The position numbers and the translations under genes are program-made. A stretch of 62,838 bases of DNA, filler included, from Gonapodya sp. JEL0774 (lineage: Eukaryota): assembly GCA_027604505.1 (NCBI GenBank). It is 44 parts of 44 records of this genome, joined end to end, with 100 filler letters (N's around TTAATTAATTAA, not from the genome) between each part and the next. Parts side by side here need not be neighbours in the genome. Positions count along the whole stretch, not along the records: positions 60,097 to 61,417 come from JADIIX010003359.1; 43 more parts are not named here. One strand, written 5' to 3'. Below, piece after piece: positions 1,439 through 61,417 of the stretch (positions are counted from its first letter, which is position 1; each line of letters begins with the position of its first letter). The notes under the pieces are model-generated. The model saw only the letters and a program-made list of their open reading frames with translations, searched no databases and was not told the origin of the DNA.

Positions 1439-2776
1439 CAAAACAGGTCTAAGAGAGAAGAGGTCACATCCATCATAAGCTTGTTTGAACAAATTTCAAA
1501 CTGCGTGAAATGTGCCAACTCACCTTCGAATTGCTGGATGTCCAGTTTCACGCTCGTCTGGCTGGTCTCATGCCACACGGACTCGGCTTTAACATCATTT
1601 TGGTTGATCTCCGTCCAATGAAGCTTAGCTTTTACTTTCTTTTTTGCGGGAGCGGGAACAGGAGCAGCGACAGGAGCTGGAGGAGCGAAACCCGGGGCAC
1701 GAGGAGCCCCAAACGGAGGGGGAGGAGGACCCCCTATCCCGGGAGGAGGCGGGGGGCCGGGAGGGGCAAGTGGGGCCCGAATACCAGGAGGGGGAGGAGG
1801 TGGGGGTGGGCCACCACCAGGAGGAGGCGGTGGGGGAGGGGGGCCGCCCAAGCCAGGTGGAGGAGGCGGTGGCGGAGGAGGTGGGGGAGGACCACCTAAC
1901 CCGGGTGGCGGCGGCGGTGGAGGTGGCACACCGAAGCCGGGGGGCGGTGGCGGTGGAGGAGGAACACCAAATCCAGGTGGGGGCGGAGGTGGGGGCGGAA
2001 CACCAAATCCGGGTGGCGGTGGTGGCGGGGGAGGAACCCCAAATCCCGGTGGTGGTGGCGGGGGAGGAACACCAAACCCCGGTGGTGGTGGAGGCGGAGG
2101 CGGAATTCCAAACCCTGGTGGCGGTGGGGGAGGGGGAGGGGCAGGGGGAACGCCAAACCCTGGTGGCGGTGGAAGGGGGGGAGGAGCGGGGGGAACGCCA
2201 AAGCCGGGCGGGGGAGGAGGAGGGGGGGGAGGTGCAAGAGGTATTCCGAATCCAGGTGGCGGAGGTGGCGCTGTTGGGATACATTCGTTGACAAAATAAG
2301 TAGCATTAGTACCAAATCATGGTACGGAAATGTTTCATATGCATACCTGCGGACATTCCCGGGGGCAATGGTGGCGGTGGTGGTGGAACTGGAATGTGTC
2401 CATCGTTGGACGGTTGATAACCAAACGGTGGTGGTGGAGGTGGTGGTGGTGGCGGAATGGTCACCGTTTCCATGGGAGTAGAGTAACCGAACGGTGCCGG
2501 TGGTGGTGGCGGTGGTGGTGGGATATTGGATATGCCGGATTCCTGCGATTCGGGCGATATGTAACCAATTGGTGGTGGAGGCGGAGGTGGGGGTGGAGGG
2601 ATATTCGAAGGAGCAGTCGCCAAGGGAGGAATATACCCGGGCGGTGGGGGTGGTGGGGGCGGTGCTGGCGGAATGCTCGATTCAATAGATTCGTTGGGAG
2701 GGATGTAACCAAACGGTGGTGGTGGAGGCGGTGGTGGAGGCGGAATACTGGATTGGAAATCGTGTGGAACATATCC
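1439..2776 (-). CDS. Formin, FH1 poly-proline region and start of FH2 (internal fragment)
   Basis: Many PPPPPPPGFGG repeats followed by KKKVKAKLHWTEI...SVW...KLDIQQFE|DLF, the FH2 lasso. Introns at 2271-2346 and from 1523 down. Confidence 0.92.
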
Positions 2777-9252: not shown

Positions 9253-9872
9253 GCCCGCGAGGTTCTTTCGAACGAAAGCAATGTACAGCCCGTCCGCGTT
9301 CCTGTTACAGTCTGTGGCGATGTTCACGGCCAGTTCCACGATCTCTTGGAGTTGTTCAGGATCGGTGGCAATGTGCCCGATACTAATTATCTGGTGAGTG
9401 ACTCGTGGGTTGTTGGTACACGCTTGCTCTGGATTCGAGTAACAACTGAGACCTTGGACTCGGGAGAGATTCACGCTCGTAGAGAGCGATGGGTGCACGA
9501 GCTGTCCAGCATCTGCCGGAACTAAACTCTTAGGTTCAGTGAACACTGGGACGTAGTATGTTCTCGCCGGCAGCACACTACCATCGCATACTACGTTGAC
9601 ACATCAGGAAGAATCCGTGGTTGTTTCTTGATGCCAAATCTCTCCAATCCCCCGAGTCTCAACCATTCACGCCTATCCTCGTCCTGGGATACCTCACTCA
9701 CTCGTCAACCTTCATTCTCCACTTACTCACTCTTCTCACAGTTTATGGGTGACTACGTGGACCGTGGCTACCACTCTGTCGAGACCGTCACCTTGCTCGT
9801 GGCTTGCAAAGTTCGATACCCCGATCGCGTTACGTTGACGAGGGGGAACCACGAGAGTCGGCAGATTACCCA
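9253..9872 (+). CDS. PPH21: Protein phosphatase 2A catalytic subunit, two internal exons (9253-9393, 9742-9872)
   Basis: [69 protein letters not shown]. Confidence 0.92.
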
Positions 9873-24406: not shown

Positions 24407-24483
24407 TTCATGAGCCGCTGAGTGGTCAAGTTGGGTATGCCCTAGCCGTTGGGGCTCTTGTTGCCCGGATATTGAGCGCGAAG
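24407..24483 (+). repeat. 77-bp contig start identical to the contig end at 58498-58574
   Basis: Exact match TTCATGAGCCGCTG...TTGAGCGCGAAG; both copies sit at contig termini. Confidence 0.95.
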
Positions 24484-47284: not shown

Positions 47285-47732
47285 TCTCAATCCCATCCTC
47301 ATCCCATCCCCATCCCCATCCTCAACAACTTTCGAAAAGTTTCAGAATCTCAATCCCATCCCAATCCCCATCCTCAACAACTTTCGAAAAGTTTCAGAAT
47401 CTCAATCCCATCCTCATCCCATCCCAATCCCCATCCTCAACAAGTATCGAAAAGTTTCAGAATCTCAATCCAATCCCAATCCCCATCCTCAACAACTTTC
47501 GAAAAGTTTCAGAATCTCAATCCCATCCTCATCCCATCCCCATCCTCAGCGACTATCGAAAAGTTTCAGAATCTCAATCCCATCCTCATCCCATCCCAAT
47601 CCCCATCCTCAACGACTATCGAAAAGTTTCAGAATCTCAATCCCATCCTCATCCCATCCCAATCCCAATCCCCATCCTCAACAAGGTTCGAAAAGTTTCA
47701 GAATCTCAATCCCATCCTGAAAGACTTTTCGA
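47285..47732. repeat. Tandem array of 52-69-bp units with a palindromic core and a terminal inverted copy
   Basis: TCGAAAAGTTTCAGAATCTCAATCC at 47332, 47384, 47447, 47499, 47556, 47619 and 47688, separated by variable ATCCC/AATCCC runs. Inverted CTGAAAGACTTTTCGA at 47717-47732. Confidence 0.95.
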
Positions 47733-48709: not shown

Positions 48710-50033
48710 TAGAGAGCTACGCCCTTCTTTGGAGGGATACACAACACAACAATCAGTACGAAGAGGCTGTTCCCGCTGCTCAGACTAACGACGGCAGGGT
48801 TGCCGCAGTGGTCCGATGCACACACGAACATGATACCGTGCTGTTTACTATCAAAACGGGGACCGTGAGCACACTTCTACCAACCGAGATGGATTCGACG
48901 TGGAGTTAACTTTGTATGACATTTGTCCTCATTCAGCCACCGAGCGTGGAATCCATAACCACTGTTAAGCGAACCATGTCAGATTTTATGATGTTGAGAT
49001 CACACGTGAGTTTTAGGTATCTTTGCGTCACTTTTCGAAACTCATCAACATCGCGGTTTCGTTCGTCCTCTTGTTCTTTCGCCCATCACAGCTACTTGAA
49101 GAGCAACCGCAGTCATGCATCCCCGAACTTCGAGATCTGTCAGGAACACAACACCTAGTGGCAGCGCTCACGCTTTCAATTCCAAAGCATTCGACAGAGT
49201 ACCATGACCTTTTCTCGCCTTCAGTGACAACATCCCCCGTGCGAGGTCAGGAGACTATTGCACTGGATCTTAAGCGCTCGAAGCTGACTGCTCAACAAAT
49301 CGAGGAAGCTTTGCAAACTGCCTCCAATCCCGGTTCTGCGAACCGTGCAGTGAAACGCATCATACGGCGCTTAAATCGCTTCTTGATCTGGCTGCTGAAT
49401 CATCCGTCTTTGAAATCGAACGAGCTTGTCTGGGAATTTTTGGTTTTGCCGGAGATCGACTGGTTTGCTGTGCAACATCGGACACTTCAAAGAAAGTTAG
49501 ATCTCATTGATCAAATCATGGATGATTACCCACCTATATTTCGAGATCAAGTCGGACAAACTGGAGCCAATGCCGAAATTGAGTACCTTGGACACTTTTT
49601 TCGAGAGCAAGAAGAGAAGCTCACAGAAGCAACAACTGGCAATAACTCATGCGCTGTTCGAGCAAAAGTCATGTCCAAGTTTAAAAGGTCTCTGGCGTCT
49701 GCTCTGGGGGTGCTTTCTCATCAAATTGGGCGACCAACGAGCATGATTTGGGAATGTGAACGTGATGGAACTTCTGACCGACTGGGAACTGACTTTTTGA
49801 TACATGGTTACCAAGGACCGGCCACGGGTATTCTCATGCGTACTATTGGAGAGTGCATGACAGAGTCGGTGAGTTGTCAAGCTTGGGTCTTGGCGAGTAA
49901 GAAGGTTGTGGTCTGTTTCGCTGACATTTATTTGCTGTACTGCGAAGGCTGCCCGGGCTGCGTGGGATCTCTCTCAACTATTCCAGGAAACAGTTCTCGA
50001 GATCGAAGGTACCAAGGGACTTTTGAAGCGTCA
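48710..50033 (+). CDS. PX-domain protein, probably the C-terminal part of a Vrl1/VARP-like (VPS9-ankyrin-PX) protein
   Basis: DGRVAAVVR..VLFTIKTG, KRTMSDF..L..EQPQSCIP, RFLIWLLNHPSL...VWEFLVLP. Confidence 0.55.
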
Positions 50034-58497: not shown

Positions 58498-58574
58498 TTC
58501 ATGAGCCGCTGAGTGGTCAAGTTGGGTATGCCCTAGCCGTTGGGGCTCTTGTTGCCCGGATATTGAGCGCGAAG
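58498..58574 (+). repeat. 77-bp contig end identical to 24407-24483
   Basis: Exact terminal match. Confidence 0.95.
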
Positions 58575-60096: not shown

Positions 60097-60401
60097 GCAC
60101 CAAACGTTCATTCTCGATTCCACTTGGCTTCATTGACATGAATGAATACTTGAGCACATACTGTAAGAGATATCACCGCCAAGAAGTGATTCAGTGACTG
60201 TTATGTGCCTGACATAGCGGTCAGTTCTCACCCTATATACGCACCAAACATTCATTCTCAATACCACTTGGCTTCATTGACATGAATGAATACTGGAGCA
60301 CATACTGTAAGAGATATCACCGCCAAGAAGTGATTCAGTGACTGTTATGTGCCTGACATAGCGGTACATATCAACACATCGCACAACATACTCAAACATA
60401 C
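60097..60401 (-). mobile_element. Introner-like intron, copy 2 (3' end runs off the contig)
   Basis: Begins with GTATGT at 60401 on the minus strand and is nearly identical to 60538-60846. Confidence 0.75.
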
Positions 60402-61417
60402 CAATGCATAGCAACTCCATAACGAAAAAGTCCACTTCCAATTACGGTAAAAACAATCGAGGATAAGCGCATTTGTCGAGCTACACCATCAAGAGTCGTA
60501 ATAAGTGGGCTAGGTGGTCAGTTCTCGCCCCATCTACGCACCAAACGTTCATTCTCGATTCCACTTGGCTTCATTGACATGAATGAATATTTGAGCACAT
60601 ACTGTAAGGGATATCACCGCCAAGAAGTGATTCAGTGACTGTTATGTGCCTGACATAGCGGTCAGTTCTCACCCTATCTACGCACCAAACACAATCATTC
60701 TCAATACCACTTGGCTTCATTGACATGAATGTACACTTGAGCACATTATGTAAGAGATATCACCGCCAAGAAGTTGATTCATTGACCTGTTATGTGCCTG
60801 ACATAGCGGTACATATCAACACATCGCACAACATACTCAAACATACACCTTCCGTCGTCCCATGTGTTGTATCAAAGCGTCCTCGAATTTTTTGGCATAG
60901 TTTGCAGCATTCATTATATTGCTCCTATCCAAAAGATCACGTACTTCCGCAGACCCGACGTACTTGCGACTTATCGCCATTTGTGTTGCCTTTTCCACAA
61001 ATTCATCTTCTGTTGACGCCACACAATCGTTTGCTAATCCAACTTCTGTGAGAAGAGAGCCTGTCACCCTTTGTACATGCGCAGCATTTCTCTTTGCCAG
61101 TGTGATTATTGGTACTCCCGTGTAAAGGCTTTCCCAGCTAATAGTAGTGCTACTGTAAGGACTTTGATCCAGGAGGCAGTCTGCCTCAGCATATTGCATC
61201 ATGTGGTCCCTGTAACCGAGCGAACCGGGTAGAAGAACAACCCGATCGCATTGCTCTGGCGGGACAAACCGAGACAAGAATGTTCGCGCAAATGATGTAT
61301 CTAGAAAGAGTCGAGACTTGATGAGTAGCAAAGAACCTGACACGCCTTCTAGAATCCGAAACCACAGCCGGAACGTCGCTGCATTCAGTTTGTTAAGTTT
61401 AGCAAACACTGCAAATG
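60402..61417 (-). CDS. SPINDLY-type GT41 glycosyltransferase C-terminal lobe continuing in frame into a further domain (exons 61417-60847 and 60509-60402)
   Basis: KLN..WFRILE..LLIK..DHMMQY..DCLLDQSPYSSTTISWESLYTGVPIITL..HVQRVTGSLLTEVGL. Splicing gives RRK|VPLITTLDGVARQMRLSSIVFTVIGSGLFRYGVAMHW. Confidence 0.85.
60510..60846 (-). mobile_element. Introner-like intron, copy 1 (337 nt, with an internal ~144-bp tandem duplication)
   Basis: Minus strand GTATGT...GAACTGACCACCTAG gives donor, branch site and acceptor; removal restores the reading frame. Confidence 0.8.

What the first reader, a model, noticed from the sequence alone, without database searches (positions are those of the whole stretch)
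60097..60846. Two consecutive near-identical spliceosomal introns: a candidate new introner family
What looks like a tandem repeat is, on the minus strand, GTATGT(60846)...CTGAC-CACCTAG(60510), then a unique 108-nt exon (60509-60402), then the same sequence again from GTATGT(60401). Both introns are phase 2, and splicing extends the GT41 frame without a stop. Similarity starts exactly at the donor G and the preceding exons are unrelated, which argues against segmental duplication and for a self-copying intron. At 337 nt it is several times longer than most introns here, and no TIR or target-site duplication is visible. Introners are established in algae and some fungi; whether this family is undescribed needs a search.
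Basis: partly seen in the sequence, partly recalled or inferred. Interest (0 to 1): 0.88.

Follow-up and report, generated by a model that had tools for sequence, protein, structure and literature searches.

The report
Locally duplicated intron-like block, chytrid gene
At the end of a sugar-transferase gene in a chytrid-type fungus, an intron-like stretch occurs twice, 108 bases apart; it was most likely copied by an ordinary local DNA duplication rather than by a jumping intron family, but the sequence stops 28 bases before the point that would decide this.

Summary
The repeat is real. Two copies start at GTATGT (60846 and 60401, minus strand), match at 295 of 305 aligned bases, and are separated by 108 unique bases. 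The organism is a Gonapodya relative. The introner reading is not shown. Copy 2 is cut by the contig end 28 nt before its acceptor, so the 3' boundary and next exon are unseen. Unrelated upstream exons are also what a head-to-tail 445-nt duplication gives. Each copy is a 37-nt head plus two ~144-nt tandem units that carry their own donor, branch point and AG, so the 337-nt length comes from an inner duplication and other splice paths exist. The G. prolifera orthologue ends within 2 aa of the unspliced stop. No further copy was found in the other 43 contigs or in three collections. A published survey lists 0 introner families in both Gonapodya assemblies. For real splicing: a consensus donor exactly at the boundary, a strict branch-plus-AG motif, an open and weakly periodic 108-nt frame. 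Verdict: a likely same-gene duplicated intron, a known class. Local tandem duplication 0.5, intron-only local copy 0.2, dispersed introner family 0.15.

The parts
60840..61415 (-). GT41 (O-GlcNAc/SPINDLY-type glycosyltransferase) C-terminal domain, 192-codon open frame, cut at the contig start; unspliced it ends at TGA 60839-60837
   Evidence: Pfam PF13844 E 1.4e-9; 61% identity to Gonapodya prolifera P0001 over 185 aa
60510..60846 (-). Copy 1 of the intron-like block, 337 nt: GTATGT donor, ACTGAC branch motif near 60521, TAG acceptor at 60510
   Evidence: splicing is predicted, not observed
60810..60846 (-). 37-nt head of copy 1, identical to the head of copy 2; holds the in-frame TGA of the unspliced gene
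60662..60809 (-). Inner unit 1a (148 nt), the most diverged unit; its inner donor GT reads TA; ends in ACTGA followed by a TCAG acceptor-like site at 60650
60518..60661 (-). Inner unit 1b (144 nt) with a 47-nt exon-like stretch (60649-60603) and an intact inner GTATGT donor at 60602; followed by the 8-nt tail 60517-60510
60402..60509 (-). Unique 108-nt stretch, candidate symmetric (phase 2-2) exon; one of three frames open; no homologue found
60097..60401 (-). Copy 2, 305 nt: head 60401-60365, unit 2a 60364-60221, unit 2b 60220-60097; cut by the contig end 28 nt before the expected acceptor

Best explanation
Two near-identical copies of an intron-like block lie 445 nt apart at the end of a GT41 gene, and they likely arose by two nested local DNA duplications rather than by a mobile intron. 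First, a roughly 189-nt intron-like region (37-nt head, one 144-nt unit, 8-nt tail) likely duplicated its 144-nt middle head to tail, using an ACC microhomology. Later the block plus the 108-nt stretch behind it was likely duplicated head to tail, donor to donor; because 108 is a multiple of three the frame would survive. Neighbouring units likely exchanged sequence by gene conversion. This predicts a second copy of the 108 nt just beyond the contig end. Whether the cell removes the 337 nt as one intron, as 197 + 93 nt around a 47-nt exon, or not at all is untested.
For: Shown: the inner 144-nt tandem duplication with ACC at its junctions, so the locus does duplicate at DNA level. Shown: five sites separate a-units from b-units (104, 107, 119 scored in all four units; 135 and 139 only in three, 2b being cut), so the inner duplication preceded the outer. 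Shown: unit 2a is b-like at seven sites in positions 23-78 and a-like from 104 on, a mosaic that fits conversion (runs test P 0.0025, or 0.054 when the 116-118 event is counted). Shown: 108 = 3n, same phase at both donors. No other copy in the other 43 contigs or at their ends, nor in viral, metagenome or prokaryote collections. Both Gonapodya assemblies and Hyaloraphidium have 0 introner families in PMC12130899 supplement file 7. In fungi half of same-gene near-identical introns were segmental duplications (PMC3609843).
Against: The left breakpoint falls exactly on a donor with no shared upstream base; for a DNA duplication that is a coincidence of the order of 1% (inference; donor-like sites 0.3% per base), while a mobile intron predicts it. 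The other half of same-gene pairs in PMC3609843 lacked duplicated flanking exons and were put forward as possible transpositions. The predicted second 108-nt copy is not seen. The GT41 frame has no intron in about 570 nt (P about 0.08 at 4.5 introns/kb), which mildly favours recent intron gain. The negative searches cover 58 kb of a genome of tens of Mb and collections that hold no close relative; young repeats break short-read contigs and could be missed by annotation-based surveys.
Confidence: 0.5

Rival explanations
1. Intron-only copy within the same gene: the 337-nt intron was copied once into the next exon (reverse splicing into its own transcript or template switching), with no genome-wide family.
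For: Exact start at the donor G, unrelated upstream exons, no TIR or TSD. Strict branch-plus-TAG at the end of copy 1, open frame and weak codon periodicity in the 108 nt (P 0.018, post hoc; codon score z 1.32, within the 0.75-1.59 of GT41 itself). Such pairs are described in fungi (PMC3609843; mechanism reviewed in PMC3443670).
Against: 3' boundary unseen. Equal phase is a 1-in-3 chance. Needs a 43-aa or longer tail, while the orthologue has 5 aa after the aligned residue and the unspliced frame 7. GC3 of the 108 nt is 0.20, below all 41 windows of trusted exons (minimum 0.31). Inner donor and acceptor would compete.
Confidence: 0.2
2. One reading: two members of a dispersed introner family, inserted one exon apart and spliced out whole.
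For: [quoted passage not shown]
Against: Only two copies, one gene; none in 43 other short contigs, whose ends should be enriched for a high-copy young repeat. 0 families in both surveyed Gonapodya assemblies (also 0 for G. prolifera). Length explained by the inner duplication. Fold not clearly beyond shuffles (5 of 100 as good). Orthologue ends here.
Confidence: 0.15
3. A non-spliced dispersed repeat (MITE- or SINE-like) or plain 3' flank: GT41 stops at TGA 60839-60837 and the splice motifs are chance.
For: Unspliced end within 2 aa of the orthologue's; 84 of 149 homologues end within 15 aa of this point; no homologue of the 108-nt peptide; GTATGT occurs several times in the block.
Against: Needs three coincidences: boundary on a donor, boundary three codons before the stop, strict branch-plus-TAG (0.017% per base). 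No TIR or TSD. 49 of 149 homologues do continue for more than 40 aa.
Confidence: 0.08
4. Assembly chimera: the contig was joined through a repeat shared with another locus, so the 108 nt and copy 2 belong to a different gene.
For: Fragmented short-read assembly (44 contigs of 1321-1338 nt, one 77-nt end overlap); unit 1a carries a cluster of private changes; orthologue lacks the extension.
Against: Longest exact repeat inside the contig is 70 nt, below the 77-nt overlap seen between contigs; the four units differ at consistent sites. It would itself need further copies.
Confidence: 0.07

Closest known systems
Same-gene duplicated (SGD) near-identical introns of fungi (Collemare et al. 2013, PMC3609843; passages seen)
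   Same: Near-identical intron-like sequences seen only within one gene; no TIR or TSD; no clearly stable fold; class holds 82 of 1610 duplicated introns in 24 fungi, half segmental.
   Different: Here the block is about five times the usual local intron length because of an inner 144-nt duplication with nested splice signals; splicing unproven; lineage (Monoblepharidomycetes) is an early-diverging fungus.
Introner-like elements (ILEs) of Dothideomycete fungi (as summarised in PMC3609843)
   Same: Longer than regular introns, canonical donor, branch point and acceptor, no transposon ends.
   Different: ILEs occur in up to hundreds of copies in unrelated genes and have significantly stable folds; here two copies in one gene and z about -1.9.
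Introners in the sense of Gozashti et al. 2022 and 2025 (PMC9860276 sections 7 and 15; PMC12130899 section 12, passages and supplement search)
   Same: Similarity starts at the 5' intron boundary and does not enter the upstream exon; length within the 30-654 nt range.
   Different: At least 4 copies in different paralogy groups and similarity to both boundaries are required and not shown; 0 families listed for Gonapodya and Hyaloraphidium.
Tandem exon duplication of a symmetric exon (general knowledge, recalled; search gave no fungal paper on it)
   Same: 3n exon with the same phase on both sides; repeat period equals intron plus exon.
   Different: Breakpoints usually lie inside introns, not at the donor; second exon copy not seen here.

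Membership tests
Introner (Gozashti 2022/2025) | At least 4 similar introns in genes of different paralogy groups | not testable with these tools
   No genome held. 2 copies in one gene; 0 in the other 43 contigs and 0 in collections.
Introner (Gozashti 2022/2025) | Similarity begins at the 5' intron boundary and not in the upstream exon | tested here: met
   First 59 nt identical from the donor G; upstream flanks unrelated.
Introner (Gozashti 2022/2025) | Similarity ends at the 3' boundary and not in the downstream exon | not testable with these tools
   Contig ends 28 nt before copy 2's expected acceptor.
Introner (Micromonas criteria, PMC4540971) | In sense orientation in a transcription unit and removed by the spliceosome | tested here: inconclusive
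   Sense to GT41, consensus signals, frame open in silico; 13 alternative paths enumerated; no RNA data.
Introner (Micromonas criteria, PMC4540971) | Presence/absence pattern of intron gain against orthologues | tested here: inconclusive
   Only the orthologue's protein is available; it ends 5 aa after the aligned residue, before the proposed downstream exon.
DNA-transposon-type introner | Terminal inverted repeats and/or target-site duplication | tested here: not met
   11 of 30 terminal matches; no same-offset repeat at the junctions except a 3-mer 10 nt away. Not required of all introners.
Fungal ILE | Longer than regular introns | tested here: met
   337 nt against 54-73 nt in 9 of 10 inferred introns, one 348 nt; excess partly due to the inner duplication.
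Fungal ILE | Significantly stable predicted fold | tested here: inconclusive
   z -1.86, 5 of 100 shuffles as good; single units z -0.06 and -1.64.
Fungal ILE | High copy number in unrelated genes | not testable with these tools
   No genome or reads.
Same-gene duplicated introns (SGD) | Near-identical introns found only within one gene | tested here: inconclusive
   True of all sequence seen, but the rest of the genome is unseen and splicing is unproven.
Same-gene duplicated introns, segmental type | Flanking exon sequence duplicated too | tested here: inconclusive
   Not on the 5' side; 3' side beyond the contig end.
Structured RNA array (snoRNA, snRNA) | Rfam match or C box / Sm site in the unit | tested here: not met
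   0 Rfam hits at E up to 5 and at gathering score; no C box within one mismatch in the units, no Sm site.
Helitron (features recalled) | 5' TC, 3' CTAG with hairpin, insertion between A and T | tested here: not met
   Copy 1 ends in CTAG but starts GT and is not flanked by A and T.

The most novel reading that the evidence does not exclude
A young introner family without TIR or TSD in Monoblepharidomycetes, the most intron-dense fungal lineage and one where a large survey found none, missed because its near-identical copies break short-read contigs; the element would carry an inner tandem duplication with nested splice signals and hop between adjacent sites of one gene.
Probability: 0.15. Interest if true: 0.6.

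Novelty: new member of a known kind. Interest (0 to 1): 0.27.

Why it matters
As a local duplication it is ordinary: same-gene duplicated introns are a described minor class in fungi. It matters only if the sequence after copy 2 is unrelated to the 108 nt. Then it would be a very recent intron-only copy, a rare snapshot of intron gain, and with more copies the first introner family in this early-diverging, very intron-rich fungal lineage. One BLAST and one read pile-up would settle it.

Tried and rejected
No whole genome is held. No sequencing run was listed, which is no evidence either way. Exact-pattern scans found 0 matches in viral contigs, metagenome contigs and prokaryote genomes; blastn in phages none; no GT41 relative in viral contigs. 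The metagenome scan for GT41 relatives gave 78 loci at 30-43% identity, none close, none holding the block (best chance hit E 0.19). I suspected that the 108-nt peptide is a second GT41 'GVP..R..S' segment: rejected, score -1.1 bits against 26.2 for a genuine piece, 181 of 1190 scored shuffles (2000 made) as good. No homologue by word search (9 candidates, none at E 10) or Atlas; both weak for 41 aa. snoRNA/snRNA array and Helitron rejected. A viral origin of the GT41 gene was considered because G. prolifera holds giant-virus islands (PMC5294986 passages); nothing ties this gene to them. Earlier scan findings: none by sequence or place; eight unrelated introner notes by words, not used. PMC5647799 and PMC4540971 (passages) gave no case of adjacent identical introns. 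Supplement files 13 and 14 of PMC12130899 were not searched, and the supplement of PMC9860276 was cut when stored. The orthologue's DNA could not be obtained.

Full report
Setting. The window is 44 short contigs (1321-1338 nt) joined by N linkers; the finding lies on contig 60097-61417. Two unrelated proteins of the window have Gonapodya prolifera as their only close hit: the GT41 frame at 61% and the frame at 49200-50030 at 55%. The organism is therefore likely a Gonapodya relative (Monoblepharidomycetes). No genome and no sequencing run were available, so copy number and splicing could not be tested.

Observation. On the minus strand a 337-nt block runs from GTATGT at 60846 to ACTGAC..TAG at 60510, then 108 unique bases, then the block again from 60401. 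The copies match at 295 of 305 aligned bases with 4 gap bases, the first 59 identical. Similarity starts at the donor G; there is no TIR or target-site duplication. Removing copy 1 keeps the GT41 frame open through the 108 nt and both donors are phase 2. Ten introns inferred from Pfam piece junctions in four other genes (from 150 of 152 candidate frames scanned) measure 54-73 nt in nine cases and 348 nt in one; these are predictions without RNA. Copy 2 stops at the contig end, 28 nt short of the acceptor (my notebook says 32; the alignment shows 28).

Each copy is a 37-nt head, two tandem units of 144-148 nt, and in copy 1 an 8-nt tail. The unit junctions share ACC, so the block grew from about 189 nt by a DNA-level duplication (inference). 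Five sites split a-units from b-units, so this came before the outer copy. Unit 1a has about ten private changes, among them GT to TA at its inner donor; unit 2a is b-like in its first 100 nt and a-like after, which fits gene conversion (P 0.0025 to 0.054 by how one complex change is counted). Because the unit contains a branch point, an AG and a GTATGT donor, the one-intron parse has rivals: 13 paths were enumerated, among them 197 + 93 nt introns around a 47-nt exon with all signals at consensus, which stops after 29 aa inside the 108 nt.

Is it spliced? For: donor-like hexamers occur at 0.3% per base, GTATGT at 0.024%, strict branch-plus-YAG at 0.017%; the 108 nt shows base periodicity in the open frame (P 0.018, post hoc; 1 of 5 GT41 windows and 0 of 6 intron or block windows were below 0.05) and a codon score like GT41's own (z 1.32; 8.6% of open shuffles as high). 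Against: the orthologue ends 5 aa after the aligned residue V999/M185 and the unspliced window frame 7 aa after it; 84 of 149 homologues with a scored last domain (167 stored) end within 15 aa, though 49 go on for more than 40; the open frame alone has P 0.15; GC3 of 0.20 is below all 41 reference windows; the peptide has no homologue. I put a real donor at 60846 at about 0.7 and the single 337-nt excision at under one half.

How was it copied? They do not: a head-to-tail duplication of 445 nt (block plus 108 nt) gives exactly this picture, and differs from an intron-only copy only in what follows copy 2, which is beyond the contig end. For the tandem model: the locus has already duplicated once at DNA level, 108 is a multiple of three, no copy occurs in the other 43 contigs or in the collections, and the 2025 survey lists 0 introner families for both Gonapodya assemblies and Hyaloraphidium (PMC12130899 supplement file 7; I do not know whether the window belongs to either). 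Against it: a breakpoint exactly on a donor is roughly a 1% event for DNA duplication, and the negative searches are weak because they cover little of this genome. In 24 fungi, near-identical introns within one gene made up 82 of 1610 duplicated introns; half were segmental and half possibly transposed (PMC3609843, passages). I commit to local tandem duplication at 0.5, with an intron-only local copy at 0.2, a dispersed introner family at 0.15, a non-spliced repeat at 0.08 and a chimeric contig at 0.07 (longest inner exact repeat 70 nt against a 77-nt contig overlap). These odds are judgement, not computed.

Comparison. It works like a same-gene duplicated intron of fungi. It cannot be filed as an introner: the definition needs at least 4 copies in unrelated genes and similarity to both boundaries (PMC9860276 section 15; PMC12130899 section 12), and neither could be tested. 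It shares the length of ILEs but its fold is only borderline (z -1.86). Searches for 'introner' with 'Gonapodya' gave two papers, neither reporting one by the passages or listing I saw (passages of PMC8476143; the other as listing only).

Verdict. Real repeat, probably intron-derived, probably locally duplicated; a new member of a known minor class. Interest 0.27. If the flank after copy 2 proves unrelated and more copies appear, it would be the first introner in this lineage as far as these searches reach, interest about 0.6.

Noticed in passing
window 60840-61415 (-): The GT41 gene looks horizontally acquired or unusual: its G. prolifera orthologue (1004 aa) lists only PF13844 and no TPR family, the next hits are SPINDLY-like proteins at 26-40% identity, bacterial where named, and about 570 coding nt have no intron in an intron-dense genome.
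   Followed up: partly
window 60748-60747 (-), unit 1a: Both invariant bases of the inner donor read TA instead of GT, only in unit 1a, within a cluster of private changes; could be silencing of a duplicated 47-nt exon.
   Followed up: partly
window 9394-9741 (+): A predicted 348-nt intron in a calcineurin-like phosphatase gene, unrelated to the block; long introns do occur in this genome.
   Followed up: partly
window 47285-47720: Tandem array of 52-63-nt units built from CCCAT/CCCCAT motifs and a TCGAAAAGTTTCAGAA core, beside a GH16-like frame; satellite-like.
   Followed up: no
window 24407-24483 and 58498-58574: Two contigs share an exact 77-nt end overlap, an assembly-graph neighbour pair and not a biological repeat.
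   Followed up: yes
window 1441-2776 (-): Proline/glycine-rich repeat frame with 33-36-nt units.
   Followed up: no
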